Shown one piece after another: positions 1 through 31,466 of a DNA stretch of 64,000 nucleotides. The DNA comes from Candidatus Heimdallarchaeota archaeon (lineage in GTDB: Archaea; Asgardarchaeota; Heimdallarchaeia; Heimdallarchaeales; Heimdallarchaeaceae). Under the pieces are notes generated by a model, which saw only the letters and a list, made by a program, of their open reading frames with translations, ran no database searches and was not told the origin of the DNA. Position numbers and translations under genes: made by a program. Numbering within the stretch: position 1 is the stretch's first letter; every line of letters begins with the position of its first letter. The stretch covers positions 110,306 through 174,305 of the forward strand of contig JAUVXV010000006.1 in assembly GCA_030603365.1 (NCBI GenBank). The letters are read 5' to 3'.

Positions 1-749
1 TTTGAATCATTCTGTAAATAATTCTCAACAGAATATTCTAACCATCTCTTTATTATAGCGTCCTTTATGAAAAATCTTGATTTTGCTAATTCTCTATAAG
101 TATAATGTCCCATTTGGATGAATAGTGTTTCTTCTCTCTCCAACTCAAACCAAGACATCTCTCCTCTTTTTCCCTTCCAAGCAGTAGACTTTGAACGAAT
201 ACTCTGATAATCCTCTAATTCTCCTGAAAGTAGAGTATTATTATACAATCCAAACAAAGCAAAAGATTCTTCTTTGAACTTAACACCAGAAGTTAGTTCT
301 TCCTGAAGATTTCTGTTACTTGCTATTTTGATATACTGTAAAGGTTGATCAATTATCTGATACCTGATTTTAATTAGAAGAGAGGTGAGTTCTTTATCCA
401 ATATCTCATCAGCTTCGATTTTCTCTTTTATTTTCAAAATTGCTTCTGGAGTTAGATATGAAAAGGATTTATCCTGCTGCTTTTCTACAAATTCCCTTAT
501 TATTTTGTGTAGTGAGATTTGTGCTGGTCCTTGTTTGATTCCTTTTTCTCCATAAATCATTAAAGGGTAGTAATAGTATAACCATTGCTTAGCTAGATAG
601 ACTATGGGTATATTATGAAATCCGTTTTGAGGATATTCATTAGGGTTTTCAATGATATAATCCACCAATGCAGATATCAGTGCAAATTTGTATGTACTGG
701 ATTTCTTCTCGCTAAATAGAACTGATTCAATTCCTATCAAAACTTCCAT
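1..749 (-). CDS. HNH-endonuclease-family protein, N-terminal part (runs off the left window edge)
   Basis: Not in the ORF track. Translated by eye from the ATG at 749: MEVLIGIESVLFSEKKSSTYKFALISALVDY...LAKQWLYYYYPL, open to position 1. The KSSTYKFAL/WLxYYYP N-terminus is typical of proteins with a C-terminal HNH domain, which is not visible here. Confidence 0.6.
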   Translation of the reverse strand, partial: MEVLIGIESVLFSEKKSSTYKFALISALVDYIIENPNEYPQNGFHNIPIVYLAKQWLYYYYPLMIYGEKGIKQGPAQISLHKIIREFVEKQQDKSFSYLTPEAILKIKEKIEADEILDKELTSLLIKIRYQIIDQPLQYIKIASNRNLQEELTSGVKFKEESFALFGLYNNTLLSGELEDYQSIRSKSTAWKGKRGEMSWFELEREETLFIQMGHYTYRELAKSRFFIKDAIIKRWLEYSVENYLQNDS

Positions 750-798
750 AGATTCAAAGAAGATTCTTTCAATAAAAATCTAGTGTAGTTTTATTATA

Positions 799-827
799 TA
801 GGTAAGAATTTAGCAAAATAATACCAT
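799..827. promoter_or_regulatory. Island dyad site 1 (TAGGT-N19-ACCAT), between divergent genes
   Basis: Followed by TCACAGAC. TATA-like TTTTTATT lies ~21 nt away on both strands (848 on +, 778 on -). Confidence 0.7.
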
Positions 828-874
828 TCACAGACATTTTAACCATTTTTTTATTAAGTTAAAAGCAATTTTAT

Positions 875-1333
875 GTGTCTCTAATGTCCGATAATAGCAT
901 TTCCAGAAAGGTTGATATAAGTTGGGGATTTGAGCTCACTATAATAGATACCCCGAACACATTATATAGTTCAGTTTATGAATCTGAAAGAACAGAAGAA
1001 GCTTTATTAGAGATGCTAAAAAATAAGAGAAATAGATATTTCTATATTGTTAGTACTCCGAAAATGCGAATTGAATCAAGATCTTTTATTCAGAAGTTAA
1101 TGCAATTAAAGGATAAACTAAGAAATTTTGAATTTGTTTTTGTTAAAGGAAACAAGGATCCTGATGAAGAAATATTAAACTTGGCTTTATCACTAAAATG
1201 TCCAGTTATTTCTAATGATAAATTTAAACAGAGACATTACGATCGGTTTAGAAATAAAAAAATTGAGATATGGAGATTCAAAATTAATAAGAAGACAAAT
1301 TGTTTGAAAATATATGAAAAATGGAGACTATAG
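875..1333 (+). CDS. NYN/PIN-fold ribonuclease (Zc3h12a/Regnase-like)
   Basis: IIDTPN...DPDEEILNLALSLKCPVISNDKFK matches the D..DD.IL..A.....ISND.F acidic motif set. The real start may be ATG 884. Confidence 0.7.
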   Translation: MSLMSDNSISRKVDISWGFELTIIDTPNTLYSSVYESERTEEALLEMLKNKRNRYFYIVSTPKMRIESRSFIQKLMQLKDKLRNFEFVFVKGNKDPDEEILNLALSLKCPVISNDKFKQRHYDRFRNKKIEIWRFKINKKTNCLKIYEKWRL

Positions 1334-1354
1334 TAATCAAATATGGGTGTTTAG

Positions 1355-2014
1355 ATGGTTTATCAAATAAGAAGGATAGAAGCAGAGGACGATATAGCAG
1401 GGTTAAGTCTTGGTTTAGCAATTCTCCTACCTGTTTATAGTTATGATTTACTATTTGGTTTTACTATACAAAAATCAGGTTCAGAAACTCTAAGAATCTG
1501 TAAATATAGACCTATAGAAGAAAAGATAAAGATGTATAGCAACATTGATTTTGCTAAACATGATATCAAAGAAGAACTATTGATCAAGATAACAGACTCT
1601 CTGGATTATGTTCTTGAAGAATATAGTACTTTAGATGAAATATTTGCATATAGGAAAAATCAAATTTTAGATTCAAGTTTGAAAGGAGGAAATTTGAGTA
1701 ACTTAGTGTATTCTGTTTGTTATTATGAGAATAAACGACACTTCGGATTTTGCTTTATGAGAGATGAGAGAGATGAGCCAATATTACGATTCTTTAGAGT
1801 TGATGTTGATTATGGATCAGTATATCCAAGATCTCTTAGAAAAGACTATTATGAAGAACATAGATACTTTGGAATATCTCTAAGAGATTTAAAATACCGA
1901 GATTTTATGAAAGCTTTACTTGAAATACTCTTAGAAACACTTGAAATTATCCAAGAAGGAGAACCTAGTTTCAGAGAATTTCATAAGTATGCTGATAAAT
2001 TCACACTCTTTTAA
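1355..2014 (+). CDS. Hypothetical protein
   Basis: 219-aa ORF 21 nt downstream of the NYN gene; no motif recognised. Confidence 0.7.
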   Translation: MVYQIRRIEAEDDIAGLSLGLAILLPVYSYDLLFGFTIQKSGSETLRICKYRPIEEKIKMYSNIDFAKHDIKEELLIKITDSLDYVLEEYSTLDEIFAYRKNQILDSSLKGGNLSNLVYSVCYYENKRHFGFCFMRDERDEPILRFFRVDVDYGSVYPRSLRKDYYEEHRYFGISLRDLKYRDFMKALLEILLETLEIIQEGEPSFREFHKYADKFTLF

Positions 2015-2022
2015 TTTTTTGT

Positions 2023-2406
2023 TTATAAATTTTCTCTTCTATAATTCACATCATCTTCATGTTGATCATCAAAATCATTTTCTGATAAAAGAACTAGATC
2101 AAATTTAGCTCCAGATTGAAAATCAAGATGAACAACATTGTAATTGCTTCCAGGATAAACATTATCAGCTTTAAAATTTGATTTTAAAACTGAAATTAAT
2201 CTAGGATAAAAAGACTCTTCTGAAGGATTACCTGTAACAGAGAATATTACATCCATATCACTATCTGGTCTGTGTGTCCTAAGAGCTCGTGATCCAGCTT
2301 GAGCTATTCTAGAAATTTTCAGATTTGATTTTGTCATTACATTAACTATACTCTTCCATAGTCTATGATAATGAGCTTCACTATTCTTATTATTATTAAA
2401 TGTCAT
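2023..2406 (-). CDS. Minimal Pol-beta-superfamily nucleotidyltransferase (SMODS/OAS-like core only)
   Basis: AQAGSRALRTHRPDSDMDVIF (hGS...DxD) and a third acid in KFDLVL; only 127 aa. Confidence 0.8.
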   Translation of the reverse strand: MTFNNNKNSEAHYHRLWKSIVNVMTKSNLKISRIAQAGSRALRTHRPDSDMDVIFSVTGNPSEESFYPRLISVLKSNFKADNVYPGSNYNVVHLDFQSGAKFDLVLLSENDFDDQHEDDVNYRRENL

Positions 2407-2508
2407 GACAAAGTAATTGTTATTAAATTATAAAAAGCTTTAGAATTCCATTGCAGTTATACTGAAAACACATACAACAAAACCAAGTTTTTTAGATGCA
2501 ACAAGATT

Positions 2509-3279
2509 CTATTTGAAAATAAAGGTTTCATCAATTGGATTAGTCTTTATCTTCTTGTATGCGTTTTTCGATTCACTTAAAAGAAATTCTTTTTTTGGGA
2601 AACTGAAATTATATGAAACTAGTGATCTATTCCTAGAATCAAACAATTGCAGATTATCCTTTAGTTCAGAATCTTTAATATATTCAAAAAACAACTTCAG
2701 AGAATCTGTAAAAGTTTCAGGTTCATTGCTTTTGAAACAACGTACTAGTATTAATTCAATTGCAAAAGAAGGAATATTTCCAGTATTAGGAGAATTTTCA
2801 GGTAAATCTCTCCAATATTTTAGAATTCTAGCAGATCCTTTAAACAGATCACCATAACCTGCTATTTCAGCAACTTCTTTCATTGATCTTTGTGCTCTTC
2901 CCAGATCATCAGTTAAACCATATTTAGTTGGTAAAACATCCATATGAACTCCTCTTACAGTTATATTTACTGATCTCTTACGTATTATAGATTGTGTTGT
3001 AGAACAGCCTTTGAGAGTTGTTTGAAATCTTTCTAATATTTTTTCCATATCTTGTTTTGGGGAAAGCAGAACTACAGCATCAAGATCACTTTGTCCTTTG
3101 ATTCCTGTTCCCTTACCTATGGAACCACATTTCCAAATTTCTACCTTAAGGATATTCTTATTACCATCTAGACATTTGGAAACCGAATTTAAAGCTGCAT
3201 TATAATTTCTTATATCAGATATACTAGGTTTCAATTTCTTTGCTAAACTGACTAATCTATCTTCAAAACTCATTTTCAA
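2509..3279 (-). CDS. OAS/CD-NTase-like (SMODS) nucleotidyltransferase
   Basis: GSIGKGTGIKGQSDLDAVV, HMDVLP, RILKYW and PSFAIELI are the OAS/CD-NTase N-lobe and C-lobe signatures. Confidence 0.85.
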   Translation of the reverse strand: MKMSFEDRLVSLAKKLKPSISDIRNYNAALNSVSKCLDGNKNILKVEIWKCGSIGKGTGIKGQSDLDAVVLLSPKQDMEKILERFQTTLKGCSTTQSIIRKRSVNITVRGVHMDVLPTKYGLTDDLGRAQRSMKEVAEIAGYGDLFKGSARILKYWRDLPENSPNTGNIPSFAIELILVRCFKSNEPETFTDSLKLFFEYIKDSELKDNLQLFDSRNRSLVSYNFSFPKKEFLLSESKNAYKKIKTNPIDETFIFK

Positions 3280-3283
3280 TTCC

Positions 3284-4213
3284 TCAACTATACTTCTTTA
3301 CAATATTCCTTACTAAGGATTCTAGTTCTAATAAATCTTTTTGGACGAATTTTTGTTCACTTTTTTCCTGAGGATGTATAAAAAATGTCAAGACTTTATT
3401 AGATGCTAGCATTGAATCCTTATCAATAAAGTTTACAACATGCTTATCAAATAAATGGTGAATAATACTTCCAAATGTTTTAGTTTTAAACAAGTCAACA
3501 AGGAAATTTGAGTAATTATCTTTTAAAACACTCTCCATAGAATATCTAAAAAGAAATGCTCCAATTGCTAAACCATAGTCATCGTTCCTATTTATTTCTT
3601 CTATTGCTAAATCAATCATACTGTTTCTTCGTTCTTGTACTAATTGATTTTCTATGAATTTTATCTTGTTCTTTGCTTCGTGTATAAGGTATGGTGAGGT
3701 AAGAATTGCTTTTATCTTTAGTTCGATTTCTCTCAATTTCTTCTTATACCCATTTTTAACAGAATTACTAATTATATTATCTTGTTCAGATTCTTCATTT
3801 AATTCTGTCAAAATATAGAAATCTTCGTATTTTCTATGATATAAAATTGTTTTCCCTTCTTGATTTCTCTTTGAATAACCCCAATCAGTAAAGTACCAAG
3901 GTTTCTTAACTAGAATCATATTGAAAAGACTTTTTTTATCTGAAGGACTTGTCAATTCTTGAAAAAGCTGATAGAGATAATCTTCTGAATATTTCTTCAG
4001 ATATGCTGCTGTAGTTATTTGCCAGTGTATAAACTGTTCAAATAATTTATCACTGAGAAAAATGTCAGAAATTACTGGCTGAATTTTTACATAATCAGAA
4101 TTAGATGATTCATCTCTTGTTGTCAATGTAAGCTTCTTAATACTCTCAATTAGCAAATCATTTATTTCCTGAAATTCCTTAAGCTGTTCCGCAAATAGTG
4201 TTACAATATCCAT
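3284..4213 (-). CDS. Protein with C-terminal DUF4145/HEPN-like domain
   Basis: GAFLFRYSMESVLK...FGSIIHHL...NKVLTFFIHP resembles the HEPN (R..E, late His) pattern; the catalytic Rx4-6H motif is degenerate. Confidence 0.5.
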   Translation of the reverse strand: MDIVTLFAEQLKEFQEINDLLIESIKKLTLTTRDESSNSDYVKIQPVISDIFLSDKLFEQFIHWQITTAAYLKKYSEDYLYQLFQELTSPSDKKSLFNMILVKKPWYFTDWGYSKRNQEGKTILYHRKYEDFYILTELNEESEQDNIISNSVKNGYKKKLREIELKIKAILTSPYLIHEAKNKIKFIENQLVQERRNSMIDLAIEEINRNDDYGLAIGAFLFRYSMESVLKDNYSNFLVDLFKTKTFGSIIHHLFDKHVVNFIDKDSMLASNKVLTFFIHPQEKSEQKFVQKDLLELESLVRNIVKKYS

Positions 4214-4281
4214 CCGTTTTAAGCTCCGTCTTATAATAACTGATGTTAAAATTATACTTACTAGTTCATTAATGTATTTTG

Positions 4282-4701
4282 TTATTTCCTGAAATCATCA
4301 ATTGCTTTGTTAGCTAATTTATCTGCTTCTTTATTTTCTTCTCTCCGAATATGAGAATACGAAACCTTTTCAAAATAAGTTTCTTTCTTTTTTACTTCTT
4401 CAAAGAGCTCTTTTAGTTTTTCATTTCTTATTCTATATACACCTGTAAGATGATTAACAAGTAATTCAGAATCACTTAGAACATGTACTTTTCCTCTACA
4501 AACGCCTGCACACATGTCAAGCCCATAAATTAATGCGTTGTATTCAGCTTGATTATTTGTTAAACGGTTTCCAAGATATTTTGAACCTTTTTCTAATATG
4601 TTTCCTGACATATCTTTAATTATAAATCCTCCACCAGCTTTACCAGGATTACCTCTAGAACATCCGTCTACAAATAATCTAACCTCAAAACACTTCTTCA
4701 T
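4282..4701 (-). CDS. rnhA: Ribonuclease HI (archaeal/RNase_HI-like)
   Basis: FVDGCSRGNPGKAGGG, TNNQAEYNAL, SDSELLV, HIRREENKEADKLAN. The ATG at 4701 is preferred over the track's TTG at 4728. Confidence 0.92.
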   Translation of the reverse strand: MKKCFEVRLFVDGCSRGNPGKAGGGFIIKDMSGNILEKGSKYLGNRLTNNQAEYNALIYGLDMCAGVCRGKVHVLSDSELLVNHLTGVYRIRNEKLKELFEEVKKKETYFEKVSYSHIRREENKEADKLANKAIDDFRK

Positions 4702-4756
4702 CTCGAGTATACGTTTTTTAGGAAACAAATTAAAGGTTTTACTAAAATAAATGATA

Positions 4757-4785
4757 ATTGTAAAAAATATCTATAAAATTACCTT
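4757..4785 (-). promoter_or_regulatory. Island dyad site 2 (AAGGT-N19-ACAAT) upstream of the RNase HI/NTase cluster
   Basis: 19-nt spacer; TTTAATTT ~23 nt downstream on the - strand. Confidence 0.6.
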
Positions 4786-4896
4786 TTATTCTTCAAATTC
4801 CTAAATGTTTAATTAATAAAGTTCTAAAACTAAATAGGTAAGAAGAACTTAAAATTATGGACTCGGAGAGATCAGTATACCAAATAAAAATTCTAG

Positions 4897-5931
4897 CTAA
4901 CGTTCCAGATCTCTTAATTTCTGAAAAATTTTATCAGTCAGAATTTCTCTTTCTTTGCTATGATGAAATCTTTGATGGCAATTTGGACATACAGCAACAA
5001 CATTATCGGGAGAATCTGTTCCACCATCACTTAAGGGAACCAAATGATGTATCTCTAAAAAAGGTTCCTCATTTTCAGTTATGAAAGGCGCTGGACTATC
5101 GCAGCATTCACACTTACCCTTTGATCGTATCTTAGCATACTTGCGGACATTATGATCCCTTAAGTATTGTATAGTTTCAATTGTACTTTTCCTGATATTT
5201 TCTAGTTTGCTTCTTATGATTTCTAACAGATCACCCAAGTTTTTTTCTTCAACTATTTGTTCGATTAATTTCTCATAACTCTGAAGAATATCAGTAGAAA
5301 CGGCACTAGTGTCATATATCATTGATTTATCTTCATTCTCAGCGATATTAACTAACCAAGGATTAACCAATCTTAACAGATTTGTTTTCATTTCTATAAA
5401 AGTTTCTTCGTTCAGAACAGGATGTAGAAGTTTGATCTCTTGTGGAATGCTTAATTTGTAATAATAGTTTCGACCTCTCTTTCCTTTACTTAGAAGGCCT
5501 TCTTCAATTCTCTTAGTTATCTTATAAACTCTAAAAATAGCTAGATATCCTTGTTCTTGATTCTCAAAATAATTAAATGGAGCAATTGGATCCCAGACTT
5601 GAAAGAATCTGTTGCACAGATTTTCAAACATTTCATAATTAACATTAACCTTTAGATAAGAATCAATGAAGGCAACATATTCCAAAGGGAAAGGTTCATT
5701 CAAGATACTGTTTTCATTTAATGAACCTAAAGAAGATAGTTTGAATGTTGCTTTTGTTAATTTAGTATCAAGTAAGAAAGGACCGATATGAGGATTCATT
5801 TCCTTTTTACAGAGCAGTATTTGATGGTTTTTATATAAATTCTCAAAACCAAATGTCATAGAAAAGATATTTACAATCTCATCGCGTAATGCATATATTA
5901 GTTCCATGACATTCACCTTACTTAGTCTCAA
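4897..5931 (-). CDS. HNH endonuclease (McrA-like C-terminus) with a DUF1802/PUA-like N-terminal domain
   Basis: CECC...LEIHHLVPLSDGGTDSPDNVVAVCPNCHQRFH. The N-terminal QILLCKK/FLL/LAIFRVY pattern resembles DUF1802 (weaker call). Overlaps the dptH-like stop by 4 nt. Confidence 0.8.
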   Translation of the reverse strand: MRLSKVNVMELIYALRDEIVNIFSMTFGFENLYKNHQILLCKKEMNPHIGPFLLDTKLTKATFKLSSLGSLNENSILNEPFPLEYVAFIDSYLKVNVNYEMFENLCNRFFQVWDPIAPFNYFENQEQGYLAIFRVYKITKRIEEGLLSKGKRGRNYYYKLSIPQEIKLLHPVLNEETFIEMKTNLLRLVNPWLVNIAENEDKSMIYDTSAVSTDILQSYEKLIEQIVEEKNLGDLLEIIRSKLENIRKSTIETIQYLRDHNVRKYAKIRSKGKCECCDSPAPFITENEEPFLEIHHLVPLSDGGTDSPDNVVAVCPNCHQRFHHSKEREILTDKIFQKLRDLER

Positions 5932-8900
5932 ACATTCTTTACTGACCTTCCACCATGTGTTGTTGATCGAGGTCTTATTTTTATTTTCTTCATTCCCATT
6001 GTAAAATCTAAGCGGTTTGCTTCTTTAGCCCATATTAGTGCCTCACCTTTCTCAAGATTAGAAAGTTCTTTTATGTCAACATCTTCCATGCTACTTAGTT
6101 TCTTCTTAAGAATTTTCAACCAATCTGGAACAACAGTTTTATGAATTATTACAATTTCAGAAAGCTCAATTATTGTATCAGCTATAGATTTAGGATCTTG
6201 AGATGATACAACTAGAGAAACTCCTCTATGTCTTACTTCTCTATTTAATGTAACTATTTCTTCTTTCATTGAAGTTGAGAAGTATTTGTGAGCTTCATCA
6301 AACACTATTAATTTATTCCCCTCCCCTCGTTCAGATGCTACTCTAGCAAAAATCAAGAATAAGGACATAGCAGTATTCTTATCCATTAGTTTTTCTCTAA
6401 CATCTACAATAACTGTATCACCCTTGTTGATGTACTTAAATGCATGATTTTCTTTAGAGATATATCTCCTGGCAAGATTAATCCTTCGTTTTGCTAATTT
6501 CTTTTGATTTAGACTTAATTCATCATCTTCTTCAACAAGTTTTAGTAAATTGGTAGGTGTAAGTTCACTCTCTCCGTAATATAATTCATTCAGAAATTCA
6601 TGTATAACTTGAATATATAAGGAATCATTTGAATCAGCAAAAAGCAACAGTCTCCAGCCATCAATTCCTAAGTCTTCAGGATGGAAGAAAAGAGGAAATA
6701 CATCGATTTTTGATTCATTCTCATATATTTTCTTTTGTTCTTCATAAGATCTAGGAGTAACAAACACCTTGATTTTCTCTAGAGGAACTGCATGTTGGTT
6801 ATATTTCAATAACAAAGCATTCAATTCGTCTTCATTATCGTTTTTATCAATTAAGCTTAGATATTCAGGGGCATATGAAGTGTCTTGATGAAAATGGAAA
6901 ATTATGGTCTGGAGTTTAGAATGAATATTATTCAAACCAGGAGGCAAATTTTGAGCAGCTTCTATAATTACTCCTGTTGTATAACTCTTACCACTTCCTT
7001 TAGCTCCCAGTATTACTGTAGTCAGAGGTTCATTCATGTTTACTGCTACTTTCTTATTCTGATATTCTCCAATAATGCCCCATTCTTCAGCAACACTATC
7101 ACCAGTTGTACCAAGCATTATTTCTGGGTCCAAAACTGGTGCAATACTTATTTCCGCTGTAACTTCCTCTAGCTCATCTTTTAATTTTGTTACTGGTTCT
7201 TCAACTTCAATTGGTTTTATTTCCATTACATCTTCTAGTGTTTCATCTTCAATAACTTCAAGTGCAGTAAAACTTTCTTGAGATGTTATTATAGGAGTTT
7301 CTGTTACTGCTTCTAATGCTTCTTTTTCAATTACTTCAATTTCATCCACAATATCAAGTAGAACAGCTATTTTCTCAAGTCCAAATAAGAAAATTCCATC
7401 CAGTTCTAATTCAGGATCTATATCTTCTGCAGAAACATAAGGGTCAAAACCAAACACTTTGCCATACAGCAGTTTATTTTCTGTTTTATAACCAAAAAAT
7501 GTCTCATAATTCTGTCTTTGAATTTTTTCAATGACATCTATAAGAAATTCATGTACAATTAATGCTTTATCTGTTTCAAAATATCTAAAGAATCTTCTAA
7601 CATTTTTCTCCAATAATTGAGCTAATTCTAGATCTCTCAAACTAGAATTATAATCTCCAAATCTATGAAATCTATGTTTAAGGATGAGATATGCAGATTC
7701 AATTTGTTCCTTAGCACCTGATATTACATCTCTTTTACTTGCACTTTCACCATGCTTAGCTTCAATTGGAATCATAGTTATATTTATTTTCTCAAGATCT
7801 TGTCCATCTCTCTCTATTACGATCTCAAGCAAATCATCACTTAGTTTAGAGAATTTCTCAGAATCATCATTTTTCCAAGCTTCGATATAATGATAATTAG
7901 AAATCACAATTCGGATTGATTTTATATCTCCATTTTCAATTTTCACTAGAGGTTGATTTTGATTCCCCTTTAGTAGTTCGAATAGTGCTAGTACTTCTCC
8001 TAACTTTCCTGTTAAATTTGGATATTCATCCTTTAGTGCAGATAATGCCCAACTCCCTGCTAGATAGTTAAGAGACGATAGCAACATGTTCATTGTTTTT
8101 TCTTTGTGTATCTCATGTTGACAAAGAAGTTTTAGCTGGTTTTTCATAATGGCCAATATATAATCAATTTGTTCAGTTGTGACTATAACATTGGAATGAT
8201 TAATTTGGCTTTCAAATGGTGGAGAAAAATCTATTAAATATTCAACCTGGTCATTTAAAGCACGATCAAATAACTCAACCCCTAGATCTTGATCAATAAA
8301 ACATGCCCAATCAGTGTTTTGATGTAATGAAGTTATAATATCTTTCATTTTAGGCTCAATCTGTAGCATCAAAGATAATAAATTATTCTCATCATAGGTT
8401 TGATGAATTGACGCTGAAAAACAAGTCATTGTGTGAAGTAGTTGGTTATATATTACAGTAAAATCAGAATCAGAATTTGGAATTGCTTGAATATTGTTTG
8501 TTGGATATGTAAACATACCTCTATAAAATCGACTATCTGAAGGATCAAATTTGGTATCATAATAGCTAAATATACTCGATTGTGTAGAACTAAAACGATT
8601 TGCTTTTGGAGTACTAACACGTATTGAATCATGAAAAATACCAGAAATGAATGTCAAATGGGAATACGGAAGATTCTCTATCACTTTTATAGTCTCACTT
8701 AGTTCACTTCTTTTGTCAGGTGAAACATTTGAAATAACGTATGAGATGGAACTCATCATTTGTGCTTCAAAATCATTAGGATTAGGCTTCGAAAAGAATT
8801 CTACAAAACTTCTTCCTAATTCATAACTAGGAACATCTTCTCTTGAAAAAAGACTGATATTATATTTGAGTTCCAAATCACGATATCTTTTCTTTCTGTT

Positions 8901-11579
8901 TAGTTTCAGAAGCGCATCAAGAAGATGTTGTCCACGTGATGGATTAATAAAATTAATACTAATAGTTGTATTTTTTTGAAGTAGATATGGATGAGATACA
9001 AGATAATTTTCGATTTTATCATGAATAATCTTGGTTAAATCAAGACCTTGTTCTAGAGACGAGAAGTCTAATATTTCATTTATAATGGATTCTCCTTCAA
9101 TTCTTTGATTCTGCTCATAACCTTTTCTCTTTTCAGCAAGAGAGATATAAATTCCCCAAGAATCATATTTCGAGGTTAATTTTAAATAAGTAGTATCTAG
9201 GAGTGTATCTGCTTCAGTATTCTGTCCCAAATTTAGAAGAAGGGGTATAGAGCTTCTCTTAATTTTGTCAACATCATACCTTGAAATCTTACTGATTTTA
9301 TTATCAGTTTCAAACCATGAGTAAAACTGTTTTTGTTTAAGCAATAAATTAAGTAACATCAAAGGATGAAGAGGTGTCATCAGACCTATATAGGGATCAT
9401 TTTCCTTATTCTGAATGAAAATAAAATCAAAGAATAACAGAATAGATCTGTAATCAAATACTTTCTCTTCCTTTTGATAAATATTCTTTTCACTAGAAAG
9501 AAGTGAAAGATATGTAAATGCATATTCATAGATTATATTTTCATAGGGAATCAGGTTAATAGTAAAGATTGGTAGATTCAGAGTTTTAATTCTGTCCTCG
9601 ATTTTTTTAAATAATGTTTTTCTACAATTGATGAAACTTTCAAATTCTGTCATTTCTTTAATTGTGTTTATTCTATCTGCTGCCCAACTATGATTAATCA
9701 GATCTAATTCAATTTCAGAATTAGGTATAAAATTAAGTTGTTCTATTCTTTTACATGAAGGAAAGGGGTTCATTTCTTTTTCAGAAAGAATCCATTTTTC
9801 AAGTTCAAATAGATCCGAAGAATATTCAATTACATATGTTTCATTTGTTTTCTGATTCTTCAATGTGAGAGATTTATTTACATATGATATATAATCAATT
9901 AAAGGCTCTCCGAATTTCATGAAATCTAGACTATCAATATTAACATTAAAAATATCTCCTAGTTGAATTTGACTAGATTCCTTGTTAAATTGTGATTCAA
10001 AGAGTATATCGTAAATGGACTCACTTCTTTCTGCATAGTCTTTATCTCTATAAATCTTATAATTCAGATAGACAGATTCATTTTTATATTTTATTTGAAG
10101 AGTTCCTTCATCTTCCAATTCATCAGTTGATATTACAATTTGTTTTCTCTCAGTTATAAATTTGAAACTAACTTCTAAATCCTCAGGAGATTCATCTTCA
10201 TATGCTTCTTTCAATACATTGAAAGAATCTGAGGTTTCTCCTATTATTGCAAGTATTAGGGAATCATTAACATTGTCATCAATATAGAAATTATTTTTTT
10301 CAAGGTTTCCATTAATTTCATAAACTTCCCAATTTCTAAGACCACTATTGTAAATGAAATAGTAATTAATGGGTTCACGAACTTTAGATCTTGCTGTAGG
10401 CTTATAACTAAAAGTGATATAATTCAATCCATCATGCCAATTCTTTTTCTTGATCGAAAAGGTAAAATCAGTTTCATTTTTTGGAACTGGAAGTGTCTGT
10501 TTAGTTGAAGATTCATTAATTGTAAATAGTAATTGTTCTTGACCAGACAAGTATCTGGATATAGTAAACTTTAGACTAAGAGAATCTTCAGTTACATTAA
10601 AAATGCTCTGTAATGAGGTTGAAAATATGCACTCACTTGAACTGTGCTTTGTTTTATCCAATTCTATATTCAAAAAAGAGAACTTCTGAGCTACTTCTGA
10701 AGGTTTTTCAAGTTTTGATACTATTTTAGAGAGGAGTAATTCTTCAGGCCAATTTCTGAAAATTTCATTAATTTCTGAAGTAGATTGGTGTCTAATCCAA
10801 GAATCCACTTCTTGAGCTTTGGAGGGGTCACAATAATCTTCAAGTATGTAAAAAACACTATCTCCCGATTGTATTGCTTCTTTTATATTTCTTGAGATTT
10901 TCATATTAATTTCTAAATATTCATGAGTATTCACAGAAAATTTAGTAAATGAAAGCTCATCATCTCTAATCAGACCAATCAAATGAAGTTTCTTAGCGAA
11001 ATCAACTTCAGAATCTGCAGATAATATTTTTTGAATAAAATTAAATAGATCACTGAAATTCTTATAAACAAAATTATCAGATTTGCTTTCTAGATAATTT
11101 TTCAAAAAATCCAAATATGAACTCATAGGTTTATCATGCAATTTGTCTATTTGATTCATCAAAATTTCTCTTCTAGATAGAAAAGATTTGGAAATCATCA
11201 AACCAGCTGTAGCTAAAGAGTCTAGATTTAGCATATTTGGAGTAGCAATATAGAGTAGTGTTTTATCTGTTTGTCTTGAAAGATCTCGTATCTTAACTGC
11301 AAATCCTTGAGAACAATTATACTTTGAGTCAATCAAATCATCTGTAATCAAACAAACTGCGACATCAGAATCTTTTGCCCAACTATTCAAATGATTATTT
11401 TCCGGAAAAGAGAGTTTTTCGCTTTTCCCTGTATTTGTTAATAGATCATACAAAGATTCCAGAATTTTTCCATCAGTATCAGCAAATAGCAATATTGATT
11501 TTGAGACAGTTTCTTTATTATCTTCTAAAATTTCCTCAATAGCTTTTGCGATTTCTGTATGTATTTTTTGATATTTCAT
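5928..11579 (-). CDS. dptH: DptH/MAD8-like large protein with a PD-(D/E)xK motif and C-terminal HerA/FtsK-type ATPase
   Basis: Walker A GAKGSGKSYT, Walker B LIVFDEAHKY, REVRHRGVSLVVSSQDP, terminal RPRSTTHGG (MAD8-like tail), and SDDLL...IPIEAK nuclease-like motif. Confidence 0.75.
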   Translation of the reverse strand: MKYQKIHTEIAKAIEEILEDNKETVSKSILLFADTDGKILESLYDLLTNTGKSEKLSFPENNHLNSWAKDSDVAVCLITDDLIDSKYNCSQGFAVKIRDLSRQTDKTLLYIATPNMLNLDSLATAGLMISKSFLSRREILMNQIDKLHDKPMSSYLDFLKNYLESKSDNFVYKNFSDLFNFIQKILSADSEVDFAKKLHLIGLIRDDELSFTKFSVNTHEYLEINMKISRNIKEAIQSGDSVFYILEDYCDPSKAQEVDSWIRHQSTSEINEIFRNWPEELLLSKIVSKLEKPSEVAQKFSFLNIELDKTKHSSSECIFSTSLQSIFNVTEDSLSLKFTISRYLSGQEQLLFTINESSTKQTLPVPKNETDFTFSIKKKNWHDGLNYITFSYKPTARSKVREPINYYFIYNSGLRNWEVYEINGNLEKNNFYIDDNVNDSLILAIIGETSDSFNVLKEAYEDESPEDLEVSFKFITERKQIVISTDELEDEGTLQIKYKNESVYLNYKIYRDKDYAERSESIYDILFESQFNKESSQIQLGDIFNVNIDSLDFMKFGEPLIDYISYVNKSLTLKNQKTNETYVIEYSSDLFELEKWILSEKEMNPFPSCKRIEQLNFIPNSEIELDLINHSWAADRINTIKEMTEFESFINCRKTLFKKIEDRIKTLNLPIFTINLIPYENIIYEYAFTYLSLLSSEKNIYQKEEKVFDYRSILLFFDFIFIQNKENDPYIGLMTPLHPLMLLNLLLKQKQFYSWFETDNKISKISRYDVDKIKRSSIPLLLNLGQNTEADTLLDTTYLKLTSKYDSWGIYISLAEKRKGYEQNQRIEGESIINEILDFSSLEQGLDLTKIIHDKIENYLVSHPYLLQKNTTISINFINPSRGQHLLDALLKLNRKKRYRDLELKYNISLFSREDVPSYELGRSFVEFFSKPNPNDFEAQMMSSISYVISNVSPDKRSELSETIKVIENLPYSHLTFISGIFHDSIRVSTPKANRFSSTQSSIFSYYDTKFDPSDSRFYRGMFTYPTNNIQAIPNSDSDFTVIYNQLLHTMTCFSASIHQTYDENNLLSLMLQIEPKMKDIITSLHQNTDWACFIDQDLGVELFDRALNDQVEYLIDFSPPFESQINHSNVIVTTEQIDYILAIMKNQLKLLCQHEIHKEKTMNMLLSSLNYLAGSWALSALKDEYPNLTGKLGEVLALFELLKGNQNQPLVKIENGDIKSIRIVISNYHYIEAWKNDDSEKFSKLSDDLLEIVIERDGQDLEKINITMIPIEAKHGESASKRDVISGAKEQIESAYLILKHRFHRFGDYNSSLRDLELAQLLEKNVRRFFRYFETDKALIVHEFLIDVIEKIQRQNYETFFGYKTENKLLYGKVFGFDPYVSAEDIDPELELDGIFLFGLEKIAVLLDIVDEIEVIEKEALEAVTETPIITSQESFTALEVIEDETLEDVMEIKPIEVEEPVTKLKDELEEVTAEISIAPVLDPEIMLGTTGDSVAEEWGIIGEYQNKKVAVNMNEPLTTVILGAKGSGKSYTTGVIIEAAQNLPPGLNNIHSKLQTIIFHFHQDTSYAPEYLSLIDKNDNEDELNALLLKYNQHAVPLEKIKVFVTPRSYEEQKKIYENESKIDVFPLFFHPEDLGIDGWRLLLFADSNDSLYIQVIHEFLNELYYGESELTPTNLLKLVEEDDELSLNQKKLAKRRINLARRYISKENHAFKYINKGDTVIVDVREKLMDKNTAMSLFLIFARVASERGEGNKLIVFDEAHKYFSTSMKEEIVTLNREVRHRGVSLVVSSQDPKSIADTIIELSEIVIIHKTVVPDWLKILKKKLSSMEDVDIKELSNLEKGEALIWAKEANRLDFTMGMKKIKIRPRSTTHGGRSVKNV

Positions 11580-13360
11580 TGTTTCATCGCCAACCCATAA
11601 ACAAATTGTGCCTCTTTAGCATCCGAAGCCTCATAAAATAGACCTAACTTACTTAAAGCTGCTTTCAATCCCTTATTCTCTATACTATCTGGATCTTCAA
11701 CAAACGATATTATAATTCCTCGATTTTTCAAGAAGTCCTTAAAATCATCAAAAACAATAATATTATTGTTATTCAGAGTTGAGATTTGTGCAAAAATCTG
11801 AATCAATGTGTCTGATAATGTATAGTAATTACCTACGCCTCTTCTTTTCTGCATGAAACCAGTTCCACCAGAATAAGACATATTTCTGAAGAATGCAAAG
11901 AAATGTTTTCTAGAATCATTTGCTGAGGTTTGCTTATTATAATGTGCCATTATTACATCAAAGAGTCTTTTGATGTTAGTACCTTTATTGAATTCATTTT
12001 TCTGTAACTCTTGGAAATAATCCTTTTTTCTTTCAACTGTTATATTCTGAAGTTCCAAATATCTAGAAATACATAAACCAAAATAGATTTCAACAAAATT
12101 CCTGAAATCTTCTTCCGATTCATATGATTCATGAAAATCACTAAACGAATAGAATTGATTTGTGCTATAGTACTTGTTCATACAGGATCTGATATGATTG
12201 AAAATTATTGAATAGGGAGCTAATTTTAGAACTAGATTTGCATCTTCCTTACATTTTTCTAGATAAGCAGTTTTTTTGTGAACTACTGGATCATCATCAA
12301 TTTTAGGATAAATTCTTGGTGTGCATTCACAATTTTGAATGTCATTTCTAGTAAATTGACATTTTGAACAATCTATTACATCTAATTGTCTTCTTTTTGC
12401 TGGAGACATTTTAAAAATCTCACTCATATTCTTTTCAAAAATGTATGATAATCTTAAAATGTATAAAGCTAGATGAGAAGATAAAACAGTATAGAACCAG
12501 TGTATTATAGTCTCTTTATTAAAGGATTCTCCCATATTCAAGATGTTCAACAGATCAGAGCGTATTTGATCAGTATGTAGTTCGCAAATTGGAGATTCTA
12601 ATGAATCCACAACACCAAGAAGTTTTGTGCGTGATTCTTGCAAGTTCGGTAAGTTTAATTTATTGATTCTTTCCTGAATTGAGTTAATTAGAACTTTACC
12701 TAAAATTCCTAGAGAATCAATATTTTCCTTAGCAAGAAATGAACGTAGTTTTTCCAAAACCTGTATTTTGTTTATACCCTCCTTCTTTTGGTTAGTCAAA
12801 AGCTGTAGTAACAAATTCTTAATTCTGATAGCTTCCTTAACACCCCAAATTATGCTTATTTTAACATTAAATGGAAAGAGAGTTATGAATTTATTATCAA
12901 TTTTAGCAGGTTTATCTTCTCTATACATTGCCCAATTTTCAAAAATCCATTGGTTAAGTATTGTTTTTGCTCTTTCTTGTTTTATTTGAGAGTCTTTGGA
13001 TTCATGGAAATCAATTTCTATTATTTCATCTTCATAATCCTTAAAATCTTCGAAATTCATATTTTCTAGCATCAATTCTGAGACAGAAGTAACATCCAAA
13101 GGATTCTTCGGATTTCGTTTGAAATGCTGACCAGTATGTGACAATTGAACTAACAAAGTAAAAACCTCACACACATTAACACCAAGAGGTGAGGAAGGTA
13201 GAATATCTCTCGAAGTTCTAGCATGAAATTCTCTTTCTGAATATGGAATGCTAATTTCGGTTTTATTCTTCCAGATAAATTCTGTATCATCTTTGAGATG
13301 ACTTATTTTATCAACATGTTTTTTGTAATACTTTCTAATCATCAACATTGTAACCTCCAA
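11576..13360 (-). CDS. dptG: DptG/MAD7-like protein
   Basis: Lies between dptF- and dptH-like genes with overlapping codons. C-terminal FLKNRGI...LSKLGLFYEASDAKEAQFV is typical of DptG/MAD7. Confidence 0.65.
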   Translation of the reverse strand: MEVTMLMIRKYYKKHVDKISHLKDDTEFIWKNKTEISIPYSEREFHARTSRDILPSSPLGVNVCEVFTLLVQLSHTGQHFKRNPKNPLDVTSVSELMLENMNFEDFKDYEDEIIEIDFHESKDSQIKQERAKTILNQWIFENWAMYREDKPAKIDNKFITLFPFNVKISIIWGVKEAIRIKNLLLQLLTNQKKEGINKIQVLEKLRSFLAKENIDSLGILGKVLINSIQERINKLNLPNLQESRTKLLGVVDSLESPICELHTDQIRSDLLNILNMGESFNKETIIHWFYTVLSSHLALYILRLSYIFEKNMSEIFKMSPAKRRQLDVIDCSKCQFTRNDIQNCECTPRIYPKIDDDPVVHKKTAYLEKCKEDANLVLKLAPYSIIFNHIRSCMNKYYSTNQFYSFSDFHESYESEEDFRNFVEIYFGLCISRYLELQNITVERKKDYFQELQKNEFNKGTNIKRLFDVIMAHYNKQTSANDSRKHFFAFFRNMSYSGGTGFMQKRRGVGNYYTLSDTLIQIFAQISTLNNNNIIVFDDFKDFLKNRGIIISFVEDPDSIENKGLKAALSKLGLFYEASDAKEAQFVYGLAMKQ

Positions 13361-15261
13361 GAGAAAAATGAACCTTTTTCATCCGTATTAATCTTTAAAG
13401 TACACATGTCTTGTGCAATTAAATCTAATTTATAATCCTTTGAAGAAGCTAAATAGAGTAGTTTTCTTTTAATTAATTCAATTTCTTCATATTTTCTTTG
13501 ATCCAGAGTACTTGGACGATAACCGTAAGCCATTTTAAAAAGAAAATAATAGGTTTTGAAATCTAGCTCAAAACTGATAGGTTTATCTCCATTAACTCGC
13601 AAAATAATTTGGATTCTTATCGGTAACTGTGCAAAAACGTCTCGAAATTCATATGAAAAAGGTATTCTTATTTCTGATTTTCGCATATCTATAGATAACC
13701 TAACTAAAGATGAAACTGAAGGAATACGGTTTAATCTAAGAATTTTTTTCTGTAAAACTATTTCATTTGGTTCTTTGTTGAACTTTTGTAATGTATCAGC
13801 GTAAGAGTCACTTAAAGAAAGTGCTCTACAAATTCTTCTGATCAGTCTAAACTTCAGCTTATCAGGGATTTCATTATTAGCTTCATTTTTGTATCTGACA
13901 AGATTTCTAAATTCATCTAAACATTGAGATTTAATGTCTTGATCTTTTATTTGAGTTTCAGGTATAGGAAATTGCTGAAAGAAAAATTGACGTTGAATTA
14001 TATACTGAAAGGATTCGCTCTTTAACGATCTTAATTCATTCATAACTGATTTAATATAGCGTTGATTTTGATTTTCTCTACCAATTAGTTCTTCTTCCAT
14101 TTCAGCAATATCTTTCTGTAATCTTATGAAAAAGATCTCTTCAAGAGAATCGAAATTTTCCTTCATTCTTCCAATTTCGGAAACTAAACTTGCAAAACTA
14201 TAAGACATGTAATTTATCCAATTTTTCGTAGATAGAAAAATCGGACGATAATTTTTGAAGAAATCAAGTGTTTTAAGATCAATTAATTTGTATAGTGCCT
14301 TTTCGTTTAGCAAGAATATCTTATTGTAGAATAAATGATCAAATTGAGATCTGTCTCCGCTTTCATCAAATTCTCTTTTAAATTCAATAATTTCTTCCTG
14401 ACATGTTTGAAATTTATACTCACTAAAATGGCCTGCTATTAGATAAGAGATTGTTTCTAAGAATAAACGTAGAGTAATATGTGAGGTTTCTTCGATTTCA
14501 TATTTCATGAATAAATTTTTTATTTGCTCTTTTACTGTATCATTATTATTTATCATTGAAATATTGGAAATTAAATAGCAGTAATTTCTAACAGAACATT
14601 CTTGACATTGAGAGGATAAAACAACTTTTTCATTTAGATTTGTTATTATTGAATCGAATATCGAATCATTACCAGCAAAAATATCTCTAATAGACAAGTC
14701 AATAAATGATACATTCCACACAGGTTCTTTTGTTGTTGGTTTTTCTTGTTTAATAGGCAAATTAAGATTCTTTAGTGTAAAATATTCAAGCCATTTATAC
14801 TTTTGTACTGTATCTTTCATATTCTTGAAAAAGTGCATTAACATACCAGTGTTAATTGCAATCATCTTTAGTACCTTAGGTTTATTTTGGATAGATGAAT
14901 CACTATACTCTCTAAAGAATATTTTAAGATCATCTAATTGGTTTTTATCTGGTTTATCTGCATGACTTGCATCTAGATTATATTCAATTCTTCTTCCATT
15001 TATCGTATTGCCAATTAATTCTTTAAACTTCGAAAGAAAAACTGTTTTTCCATCACCTGCTGTTCCAGAAATAATTATCAAATCAATTTGATTAGATGTA
15101 TTTTCTTTTTCAGTTATAATTTGAACAAGTTTTTCCTCAAAAGTAGGTACATATAAAAGTTCTTGATCACCTAATAATTCAGTTCCAGCGACAACATTAG
15201 ATCCACCTTTATTAAAACTACTAATTATCTGTAAATAATTCTTCATTTTCCCCACCAGCAT
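13342..15261 (-). CDS. dptF: DptF-like P-loop protein
   Basis: IIISGTAGDGKT, NLDASH, FFREYSD, IAINTGML and the CxxC...C/N motif match the DptF (and MAD6 C-terminal) pattern. Confidence 0.72.
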   Translation of the reverse strand: MLVGKMKNYLQIISSFNKGGSNVVAGTELLGDQELLYVPTFEEKLVQIITEKENTSNQIDLIIISGTAGDGKTVFLSKFKELIGNTINGRRIEYNLDASHADKPDKNQLDDLKIFFREYSDSSIQNKPKVLKMIAINTGMLMHFFKNMKDTVQKYKWLEYFTLKNLNLPIKQEKPTTKEPVWNVSFIDLSIRDIFAGNDSIFDSIITNLNEKVVLSSQCQECSVRNYCYLISNISMINNNDTVKEQIKNLFMKYEIEETSHITLRLFLETISYLIAGHFSEYKFQTCQEEIIEFKREFDESGDRSQFDHLFYNKIFLLNEKALYKLIDLKTLDFFKNYRPIFLSTKNWINYMSYSFASLVSEIGRMKENFDSLEEIFFIRLQKDIAEMEEELIGRENQNQRYIKSVMNELRSLKSESFQYIIQRQFFFQQFPIPETQIKDQDIKSQCLDEFRNLVRYKNEANNEIPDKLKFRLIRRICRALSLSDSYADTLQKFNKEPNEIVLQKKILRLNRIPSVSSLVRLSIDMRKSEIRIPFSYEFRDVFAQLPIRIQIILRVNGDKPISFELDFKTYYFLFKMAYGYRPSTLDQRKYEEIELIKRKLLYLASSKDYKLDLIAQDMCTLKINTDEKGSFFSWRLQC

Positions 15262-15350
15262 TTATGAGTTTATTTCTAAGGCAAATTCAAGCCTTGTATA
15301 CTAAAAAGAAATGATTGTTAATTAATAAGTTTAATTGAGAGTAGATAGAT

Positions 15351-15379
15351 ATGGTATTTTTTTAAATAATTATAACCAT
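15351..15379 (-). promoter_or_regulatory. Island dyad site 3 (ATGGT-N19-ACCAT, perfect) upstream of the dptF-like operon
   Basis: Perfect 5-bp inverted arms; TTATTAAT ~23 nt downstream on the - strand. Confidence 0.75.
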
Positions 15380-16251: not shown

Positions 16252-16313
16252 AACAATCAGCTTTGATCATCTATTATCCTAAGAATTTTAAAATGTAGCT
16301 TAAAATTATAAGT

Positions 16314-16342
16314 ATTGTAAAAACTGGAAAGAGAAATACCAT
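16314..16342 (-). promoter_or_regulatory. Island dyad site 4 (ATGGT-N19-ACAAT)
   Basis: TTTTAAAA begins 21 nt downstream on the - strand (16293). Confidence 0.7.
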
Positions 16343-16406
16343 TTTCTGATACCATTCCAATCCTCTATATCTTACTTAAACAAAAGGAACTCTTTATCTT
16401 ATTAAT

Positions 16407-19880: not shown

Positions 19881-20189
19881 ATGGACAAGATATTTCAATT
19901 CAAATGTCTCGAATGTGAATTAGATTTCAAACTAAGGATAGGAGCGGGAGGGAGTTCCAATCTTCCTAAAGTATATTTTTACTGCGAAAGATGTAAAATC
20001 ATAACATTGGAACATAAGTGTGAGAATTGTAAAAGACCCCTGAGAAGAATAATTTATCCTCTCAAGGAAAATATACTTGAATTTTATGAAGAAAATGGAG
20101 AAATCAAAGCTCCATGCCCTCATTGTCATTCAATCTACACGATCCTTATTCCTTTAGACAAGTGGATAACGGACTTTCAACTATGGTAA
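19881..20189 (+). CDS. Small multi-CxxC zinc-finger protein (paralogue 1)
   Basis: CLEC, CERC, CENC, CPHC; paralogous to 31539 and 20342. Confidence 0.8.
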   Translation: MDKIFQFKCLECELDFKLRIGAGGSSNLPKVYFYCERCKIITLEHKCENCKRPLRRIIYPLKENILEFYEENGEIKAPCPHCHSIYTILIPLDKWITDFQLW

Positions 20190-31417: not shown

Positions 31418-31466
31418 CAGATTTAACATAGTTCTAACTTACATAATCTTTACCATATGACTGCAA

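What the first reader, a model, noticed from the sequence alone, without database searches (positions are those of the whole stretch)
2023..4785. RNase HI + HEPN-like + OAS-like NTase + second minimal NTase: candidate novel nucleotide-signalling defence system
Seen: four co-oriented genes behind one dyad-marked promoter. The 256-aa enzyme has the GSxGKGTxxxGxSDxD and PSFAIEL motifs shared by 2'-5' OAS and bacterial CD-NTases. The 127-aa gene is a second, core-only NTase with intact GS/DxD/D. Established: CBASS pairs a CD-NTase with Cap effectors (SAVED, STING, phospholipase, NucC), none of which is present here. Metazoan OAS activates RNase L, whose nuclease domain is HEPN-related, and MNT-HEPN pairs also form toxin-antitoxin systems. 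Inference: a non-canonical CBASS/OAS-like module in which RNA:DNA hybrids or RNase H products trigger the synthase and the HEPN-like protein is the effector. This is of special interest if the host is Asgard.
Basis: partly seen in the sequence, partly recalled or inferred. Interest (0 to 1): 0.8.

Follow-up and report, generated by a model that had tools for sequence, protein, structure and literature searches.

The report
Asgard nucleotide-controlled HEPN defence cassette
In an Asgard archaeon's antiviral gene island, a compact relative of the cGAS/OAS signal-making enzymes sits tightly paired with an uncatalogued RNase-fold (HEPN) protein that it probably keeps switched off; the second small enzyme is an add-on and the RNase H gene is a bystander.

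Summary
The four genes are real, but the conserved unit is two genes: the 309-aa protein plus the 254-aa nucleotidyltransferase (NTase). All six distinct relatives of the 309-aa protein are followed directly by a CD-NTase-like gene. RNase HI adjoins only here and in the nearest relative. The dyad is chance.

The host is a Heimdallarchaeaceae (Asgard) genome, and the locus lies in a ~50-kb defence island. The NTase has intact catalytic residues and matches CBASS CdnC best. It is not the CCA enzyme, which is elsewhere, and lacks the OAS1_C domain. The partner has an unclassified N-terminal domain and a HEPN fold, but lacks the motif arginine.

The 127-aa NTase belongs to an Asgard family whose commonest partner is a similar ~300-aa HEPN protein (12 of 13 intact copies lie beside an NTase). 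Partners are swapped freely. Intact HEPN genes were not found without an NTase, whereas lone NTases are common.

Best reading (0.45): the NTase product restrains the HEPN protein (guard or antitoxin logic). A CBASS/OAS-like activating signal gets 0.27. The RNase H trigger is unsupported. The scan noted related Asgard pairs before.

The parts
3284..4213 (-). Core gene 1: 309-aa protein ('HEPN-300', group A). Unclassified N-terminal domain (1-~180; helices with two beta-hairpin insertions) and C-terminal HEPN fold (185-309) with E227-x3-K231 and H280 but no motif Arg.
   Evidence: AlphaFold pLDDT 77. VIA Z 11.6, rmsd 3.5, 115 aligned to 2hsb; the top 9 rows are HEPN/HI0074-type or uncharacterised chains. 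No Pfam, PADLOC or NCBIfam hit. Invariant residues. N-domain as conserved as the HEPN domain.
2509..3273 (-). Core gene 2: 254-aa compact CD-NTase/OAS-class nucleotidyltransferase with an intact GS/DxD/D triad
   Evidence: Pfam SMODS 28.7 bits, cut-off 26.5. PADLOC Cyclase 7e-20. Best PDB sequence and fold match is E. coli CdnC. Forms its own 100/100 clade.
2023..2406 (-). Accessory gene: 127-aa head-only NTase of an Asgard-wide family that usually pairs with group-B HEPN-300 proteins. Not a recent duplicate of the 254-aa enzyme.
   Evidence: 55 homologues besides itself, those named being Odin/Hel/Loki. 33 matches in 31 of 400 phylum genomes. Better match to CBASS_cyclase_a (6e-5) than to MntA (0.018). 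64-65% identical to NTases beside group-B HEPN genes. hhalign to the 254-aa family only 8%.
4282..4728 (-). Bystander: intact archaeal-type RNase HI (start may be the ATG at 4701). Patchy accessory gene, not part of the conserved unit.
   Evidence: Pfam and NCBIfam hits. Found in 3 of 30 family genomes, with no NTase or HEPN-300 neighbours there. Adjacent only in the nearest relative L010.
4755..4781 (.). The 'dyad' upstream of RNase HI: chance-level, not a feature
   Evidence: 7 pairs; matched or beaten in 94.5% of 200 shuffles
1..19363 (.). Context: right-hand part of a ~50-kb lower-GC defence island (contig C16, ~81-130 kb). It holds an HNH nuclease, a Mad8/HerA-like ATPase and a DndF/SspF-like gene; left of the window lie type I RM and TIR genes.
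   Evidence: GC 0.27-0.32 against 0.333 for the genome. PADLOC and Pfam hits.

Best explanation
This is a mobile two-gene defence/addiction cassette. The 254-aa NTase polymerises nucleotides, probably adenylates (inferred from its CdnC/OAS kinship). Its product holds the HEPN-300 protein in an off state. The product is most likely a small diffusible nucleotide read by the conserved N-terminal domain; a covalent NMP chain as in HepT/MntA is the less likely route. When infection or stress removes the product (host shut-off, viral nucleotide sponges or phosphodiesterases, ATP loss), the HEPN dimer is released and acts on RNA, causing dormancy or death. The 127-aa NTase is an add-on from the same wider family that may supply a second or back-up product. 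RNase HI is a passenger. SHOWN: anatomy, folds, intact NTase triad, conserved pairing, island context, partner swapping. INFERRED: enzyme activity, product, direction of control, RNase activity, trigger.
For: (1) Pairing. All 6 distinct group-A proteins are directly followed by a CD-NTase-like gene. Three were found from the HEPN side, so were not selected for an NTase neighbour. (2) A look-alike family (group B) has the same length, layout and HEPN end. 12 of 13 intact genome copies plus two assembly copies adjoin an NTase, in divergent, upstream and downstream orders. Of the five not used as seeds, four have one and one ends 127 bp from a contig end. (3) Asymmetry. No intact HEPN-300 gene with readable flanks lacks an NTase, and four broken or fragmentary copies have none in the flanks read. 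21 of 33 small-NTase matches lack a HEPN-300 neighbour, several among housekeeping genes. This fits an effector that needs its NTase to be tolerated. (4) The NTases are stripped down (108-127, ~205 and 254 aa against 321 for CdnC), and no HORMA/TRIP13 or E1/E2 genes flank the window locus, which fits constitutive enzymes. (5) Partner swapping. HEPNs 73% identical have NTases 34% identical, and group A uses two separate NTase clades. This favours a shared small product over a fitted interface. (6) Precedent: Panoptes (PMC12657218), Clover (PMC12265719), HepT/MntA (PMC13000451).
Against: The window protein and all group-A members lack the motif Arg, which is required in RNase L/KEN and PrrC (PMC3710099), so the toxin may be dead. 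There is no HxY acceptor Tyr for AMPylation. Homology between groups A and B is only suggestive (hhalign full-length and colinear but E 0.04; HMM bits 8.6-8.9 against 6.3 shuffled), so the group-B asymmetry may not carry over. Nine of the 13 genome copies of group B were seeds found beside NTases. The closest characterised enzyme, CdnC, makes an activating signal, and one small-NTase relative sits directly upstream of a SAVED effector. Three group-B partner NTases lack the third Asp.
Confidence: 0.45

Rival explanations
1. Activating signal, with CBASS or OAS-RNase L logic. Infection switches on the 254-aa enzyme, which makes a cyclic or 2'-5' oligoadenylate. That binds the novel N-terminal domain and activates the HEPN effector. 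HEPN-300 would be a new CBASS effector class.
For: The best sequence and fold match is CdnC, a cyclic tri-adenylate synthase of the clade in which OAS nests (PMC10732462). The NTase beside the distant group-A member scores 137 bits on CBASS_cyclase_a and groups (96/93) with a CD-NTase followed by an E1-type (ThiF) gene. A small-NTase relative precedes a SAVED-Schlafen gene. Partner swapping fits any diffusible signal.
Against: Orphan effectors would be harmless under this model, yet no intact orphan HEPN-300 gene was found. No sensor or ancillary gene is visible, and head-only enzymes have little room for regulation. The HEPN Arg is missing.
Confidence: 0.27
2. The HEPN protein is a non-catalytic subunit (sensor, substrate-binding or inhibitory partner) of the NTase, and the NTase is the active output, for example by tailing RNA or draining NTPs.
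For: The Rx4-6H motif is lost in HEPN domains that serve NTases as substrate-binding domains (PMC3710099). The Arg is absent in all group-A members. The HEPN gene comes first and is translationally coupled. RNA-tailing enzymes are among the fold matches.
Against: NTases often occur without HEPN-300 while the reverse was not seen, which is opposite to a toxic NTase. H280 and E227-x3-K231 are invariant. Group B keeps Asn, Lys and His, with an upstream Arg or Lys in 12 of 15.
Confidence: 0.14
3. One reading: RNA:DNA hybrids or RNase H products trigger the synthase, and all four genes form one system.
For: The four genes are co-oriented and RNase HI is intact. The same RNase HI end and spacer precede the nearest relative, L010. 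RNase H-HEPN fusions exist in the RNase LS family (PMC3710099).
Against: There is no RNase HI upstream in the other four lineages. The RNase HI relatives at 63-64% identity have no NTase or HEPN-300 neighbours. The small NTase is absent downstream in L003, L016 and L083. The dyad is chance.
Confidence: 0.04
4. A housekeeping or decaying gene cluster: a CCA/poly(A)-type enzyme, or a chance pile-up in an island.
For: The tree does not reject grouping with CCA enzymes (p-AU 0.28). Poly(A)/TUTase folds score within about 1-2 Z of CdnC.
Against: A full-length CCA enzyme lies on contig C15 (239 bits against 24 for this gene). The gene is rare (2 of 400 genomes with a full-length match). The pair persists down to 34%/44% identity, in RM-rich islands.
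Confidence: 0.06

Closest known systems
Type III CBASS CdnC (E. coli MS115-1; PDB 6p80; NF041116)
   Same: Best sequence (E 2.8e-15), Foldseek and VIA match for the 254-aa enzyme; same catalytic triad and C-lobe motifs.
   Different: About 65 aa shorter; 57 bits against a cut-off of 200; own clade; no HORMA/Cap7, TRIP13/Cap6 or NucC, which flank the bacterial hits; partner is HEPN-300.
Type VII toxin-antitoxin HepT/MntA (MNT-HEPN)
   Same: A Pol-beta NTase next to a HEPN-fold gene; GSx10DxD in the 127-aa enzyme; HepT structures among the top fold matches.
   Different: The HEPN carries an extra ~180-aa domain and has no R-x4-H-x-Y motif; the NTases resemble the CD-NTase/OAS head (MntA 14.9 bits against a cut-off of 60); the conserved partner here is the 254-aa enzyme.
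Guard-type nucleotide systems: Panoptes OptSE (PMC12657218) and Clover CloAB (PMC12265719); Hailong from my own knowledge
   Same: Proposed logic: a small constitutive synthase restrains an effector. Panoptes often lies next to CBASS, and some mCpol genes are coupled to HEPN RNases, as the small NTases here recur beside CD-NTases.
   Different: Different synthase (mCpol) or effector (2TM, dGTPase). Similarity of logic only; no homology was tested.
Metazoan OAS - RNase L
   Same: [quoted passage not shown]
   Different: No OAS1_C Pfam hit; CdnC scores higher; no ankyrin or kinase sensor was detected; the motif Arg is absent; activation by dsRNA is untested.
DUF4145-like HEPN proteins (PF13643)
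   Same: 4 of 10 group-B members hit DUF4145 weakly (best E 2e-4); UniRef names the H. endolithica copy DUF4145.
   Different: The window protein has no Pfam hit; its N-terminal domain and NTase link are not described in the libraries searched.

Membership tests
CD-NTase/SMODS enzymes | GS ... DxD ... D catalytic triad | tested here: met
   G50, S51, D63, D65, D112 invariant in 9 sequences
CD-NTase/SMODS enzymes | Pfam SMODS above the gathering score | tested here: met
   28.7 against 26.5 bits; narrow margin
CD-NTase/SMODS enzymes | Two-lobed CD-NTase fold closer to CD-NTases than to other class I NTases | tested here: inconclusive
   CdnC ranks first (Z 13.9, rmsd 4.6, 231 aligned), but GLD-2 and Utp22 are within 1 Z
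CD-NTase/SMODS enzymes | Synthesis of a cyclic oligonucleotide | not testable with these tools
   needs an in vitro assay
CBASS clade C cyclase (NF041116) | Equivalog cut-off of 200 bits | tested here: not met
   57.2 bits. Separate clade; union with CdnC neither shown nor rejected (p-AU 0.12)
CBASS system | Adjacent effector of a known CBASS class | tested here: not met
   The flanking genes have no PADLOC, Pfam or NCBIfam effector hit. The HNH gene at 4897-5931 matches type IV REase best and is not conserved beside the pair.
Type III CBASS | HORMA and TRIP13 genes in the operon | tested here: not met
   None in the locus. Genome-wide HORMA and SAVED searches were blank, but their controls were blank too.
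2'-5' OAS | OAS1_C domain (PF10421) | tested here: not met
   No hit up to E 1
2'-5' OAS | Groups with OAS in a tree | not tested
   No OAS sequence was available by reference
2'-5' OAS | dsRNA-activated 2'-5' oligoadenylate synthesis | not testable with these tools
   needs an assay
Archaeal CCA-adding enzyme (TIGR03671) | Full-length four-domain match over 281 bits | tested here: not met
   24 bits, profile positions 6-117 of 410; a full-length copy (239 bits) lies on C15
HEPN superfamily | HEPN helical fold | tested here: met
   Z 11.6, 11.4, 11.4, 10.4 for residues 185-309; the HEPN-type rows stand above unrelated bundles (8.5 or less). Z under 13 is middling for a helical fold, and Foldseek E-values were not significant. 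The Atlas model of a group-B protein gives TM 0.71 to a PF05168 cluster.
HEPN superfamily | Ex3[KR] motif | tested here: met
   E227 and K231 invariant in 6 of 6
HEPN RNases | Rx4-6H catalytic motif | tested here: not met
   H280 invariant; Leu or Cys at the Arg position, Asn272 three residues earlier. Families lacking the Arg may use other basic residues (PMC3710099).
Type VII HepT/MntA | GSx10DxD in the NTase | tested here: met
   127-aa enzyme has G38-S39-x10-D50-x-D52; the 254-aa enzyme has x11
Type VII HepT/MntA | Acceptor Tyr two residues after the motif His | tested here: not met
   H280 is followed by Pro-Gln; group B has aromatic residues at +3/+4 in most copies, not at +2
Type VII HepT/MntA | MntA model (NF047752) above its cut-off | tested here: not met
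   14.9 against 60 bits
RNase HI | RNase H domain with four acidic residues | tested here: met
   RVT_3 82.8 and RNase_H 49.4 bits; D21, E62, D86, D136 in the sequence

The most novel reading that the evidence does not exclude
Heimdallarchaeia, among the closest prokaryotic relatives of eukaryotes, run an OAS-class synthase whose (2'-5' or cyclic) oligoadenylate directly controls a HEPN RNase through a new nucleotide-binding domain. That would be a prokaryotic counterpart of OAS-RNase L and a new CBASS effector class, with head-only 110-130-aa NTases as working signal synthases.
Probability: 0.15. Interest if true: 0.88.

Novelty: new variant of a known kind. Interest (0 to 1): 0.55.

Why it matters
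NTase-HEPN pairs and CBASS are known. This combination is not in PADLOC, NCBIfam or Pfam, and I found no paper on it in the library searched: an OAS/CdnC-class enzyme (or its bare head domain) bound to a ~300-aa HEPN protein with an unclassified domain. It recurs across Asgard lineages, including Ca. Heimdallarchaeum endolithica. It gives a small, clonable test of whether CD-NTase-class enzymes can act as guards or antitoxins, and whether head-only enzymes make signals. It also bears on whether the OAS-to-HEPN-RNase logic of eukaryotes has an Asgard precedent; OAS is held to be ancient and to nest in clade C (PMC10732462).

Tried and rejected
- Complex prediction of the 309-aa and 254-aa proteins: no answer (score 0.00); not used as evidence either way.
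- Sequencing runs: no RNA holder listed.
- Viral contigs: no relative of either NTase found with the patterns used.
- Foldseek of the 309-aa model against PDB and BFVD, and the Atlas shape search: nothing significant. The N-terminal domain was not folded alone, so 'no known fold' is not shown.
- Atlas feature searches: all under 0.9, leads only.
- PDB sequence search with the small-NTase profile: nothing significant.
- Direct group A to group B profile comparison: 0.3% probability; with a bridging sequence E 0.04. Suggestive only.
- AU tests could not place the enzyme with CdnC or with CCA enzymes.
- SAVED and HORMA genome searches were uninformative (controls blank).
- I first read the Cap17-like effector in L134 as the small NTase's partner. 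Rejected, because it has its own canonical cyclase (370 bits).
- I first noted RNase HI as absent from all relatives. Corrected after finding its last five codons at the start of L010.
- Recent duplication of the two NTases: rejected.
- The Mantel correlation of partner identities (rho 0.61) is confounded by kinship and was not used as evidence of co-evolution.
- Four literature searches on Asgard, HEPN and CD-NTase terms returned no description of this pair.
Full report
1. Observation. The gaps are 68, 10 and 102 bp. Only the 10-bp gap shows coupling, with a ribosome-binding site over the stop codon; two relatives overlap by 4 nt. The upstream dyad (4755-4781) is matched in 94.5% of shuffles. 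The small NTase has a TATA-like run about 26 nt upstream, so a single promoter is not shown.

2. Host and setting. The genome shares a family with a genome whose proteins NCBI names Ca. Heimdallarchaeum endolithica, and same-genus proteins are named Heimdallarchaeota/Heimdallarchaeaceae. The locus lies in a ~50-kb stretch of 27-32% GC against 33% for the genome. It holds type I RM, two TIR genes, QueC and TGT, an HNH nuclease, a Mad8/HerA-like ATPase and a DndF/SspF-like gene. This is a defence island.

3. The 254-aa enzyme. It passes Pfam SMODS narrowly and hits PADLOC cyclase models but is far below the NCBIfam CBASS cut-offs. Its triad is invariant. The best PDB sequence match is E. coli CdnC, then OAS2, CdnE and OAS1. 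CdnC also leads both fold searches, though tailing enzymes are close. Plasmid hits are type III and type II CBASS cyclases at 22-29% identity. In a 36-row tree the family is its own 100/100 clade on an unresolved backbone; union with CdnC or with CCA enzymes is not rejected. It is not the housekeeping CCA enzyme, which lies full-length on C15, and it has no OAS1_C domain. No OAS sequence could be put in the tree.

4. The 309-aa protein. No library names it. The model (pLDDT 77) has an N-terminal helical domain with two beta-hairpins and a C-terminal domain that aligns to AF0298, sacsin HEPN, HepT and HI0074 (Z 10-11.6). That is a middling Z for a helical fold, but the HEPN-type rows stand together above unrelated bundles. 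E227-x3-K231 and H280 are invariant, while the motif Arg is absent in all six members. Arg is needed in KEN and PrrC, but some families use other basic residues (PMC3710099), so RNase activity is open. The N-terminal domain is as conserved as the HEPN domain and is the candidate sensor; that role is inference.

5. What is conserved. Six distinct group-A proteins (74, 59, 35, 34 and 24% identical to the window's) are each followed directly by a CD-NTase-like gene; two of these pairs sit among type I RM genes. The most distant uses an NTase from a different clade. Among close relatives of the 254-aa enzyme, seven have a HEPN-300 gene upstream, two do not, and two are cut or broken. RNase HI precedes only the window and L010, where the spacer is also shared, so this is common descent of one insertion. 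Its own relatives in the family (3 of 30 genomes) lack these neighbours. Both core genes are rare: full-length matches in 2 of 400 phylum genomes.

6. The 127-aa enzyme. It belongs to an Asgard family with 33 matches in 31 of 400 genomes that looks like the head of a CD-NTase/OAS enzyme rather than MntA; 185-226-aa intermediates bridge the two sizes. Eleven matches adjoin a 286-321-aa 'group B' protein ending in an Asn-x-x-Lys-His HEPN motif. A genome-wide search for group B found 13 intact copies: 12 beside an NTase and one 127 bp from a contig end. A frameshifted copy and three fragments have none in the flanks read. Nine of the 13 were seeds, which inflates this count; of five non-seed copies (one from an assembly), four have an NTase. 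Groups A and B align colinearly over their whole length but only weakly. The window's small NTase is 64-65% identical to group-B partners and 74-76% to a copy with no HEPN-300 neighbour, so here it is an add-on. Effector-plus-two-NTase clusters recur in the window, L002, L092, L094 and L134, in different orders. That may be function or island crowding.

7. Mechanism. Shown: pairing, swapping (HEPNs 73% identical with NTases 34% identical) and asymmetry (no intact HEPN-300 without an NTase; 21 of 33 small NTases without HEPN-300). Swapping favours a shared diffusible product, and the covalent route lacks its acceptor Tyr (PMC13000451). Asymmetry and the stripped-down enzymes favour constitutive restraint, as in Panoptes and Clover. 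I put restraint at 0.45, activation at 0.27 (CdnC kinship; one small NTase upstream of SAVED-Schlafen), a non-catalytic HEPN subunit at 0.14, housekeeping or chance at 0.06, and the RNase H-triggered four-gene system at 0.04. No activity, product or trigger was measured.

8. Comparison and novelty. It works like an NTase-guarded HEPN module or a minimal CBASS, but fails defining tests for type VII TA, type III CBASS, OAS and CCA enzymes. It is a new variant of a known kind, absent from the libraries and papers searched. Earlier notes of this scan describe related Asgard pairs on other DNA; they are not independent support. Interest 0.55.

Noticed in passing
L153:10149-13538 (G000 C16 90149-93538, same island, left of the window): 8xMP membrane gene, ThsB-TIR, QueC, TGT and a second TIR whose N-terminus starts Met-Gly-Gly-Gly, like the type IV CBASS-type cyclase in L019. 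Possibly a TIR system controlled by N-terminal deazaguanine modification (inference from my own knowledge of Cap9/QatC).
   Followed up: partly
L028:1438-3126 (G044): A 142-aa head-only NTase (33% identical to the window's) 15 bp upstream of a SAVED-Schlafen(AlbA_2) gene, with no other cyclase seen on the 6-kb contig: a candidate minimal CBASS.
   Followed up: partly
L134:3810-6419 and L135: The small NTase sits directly behind a canonical CD-NTase plus Cap17-N effector operon; L135 shows the same effector end followed by the small NTase.
   Followed up: partly
window 5928-15261: 1883-aa protein with a C-terminal Mad8/HerA-like ATPase, a 594-aa unknown and a 639-aa DndF/SspF-like gene, co-oriented, followed by an HNH nuclease: a DndFGH- or MADS-like restriction block.
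   Followed up: partly
L071-L082: At least 15 of 24 same-genus genomes carry a ~480-aa membrane protein whose C-terminus matches the group-B HEPN profile (E about 1e-9), in a housekeeping setting with no NTase; not found in G000 at that threshold.
   Followed up: no
window 17873-19363 and 29941-31420: The 496-aa wHTH protein has a 64-70% identical paralogue split into two frames; ORFs at 19881, 24826, 31539 and 31964 also come in paralogous pairs, suggesting a duplicated mobile segment.
   Followed up: no
L120, L123, L128: Another clade of solo ~265-aa CD-NTase-like genes in same-order genomes, with no recognisable effector in the flanks read.
   Followed up: partly
L087, L002, L086: Three small NTases paired with group-B HEPN genes keep GS and DxD but have Ser at the third acidic position.
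   Followed up: no
L093:184-2877 (G014): A CD-NTase followed by a 578-aa gene with a ThiF/E1 domain: a type II CBASS-like operon in the same family as the host.
   Followed up: partly
L017: A 2.9-kb contig carrying the cassette is filed under Ca. Aenigmatarchaeota; this is either transfer outside Asgard or a binning error.
   Followed up: no
L023/L139: A small NTase lies just downstream of what looks like an Argonaute PIWI gene (by eye; no Pfam hit on the fragment).
   Followed up: no
window 875-1333: 152-aa ORF with a weak NYN/PIN ribonuclease hit (E 0.06), on the opposite strand to the cassette.
   Followed up: no
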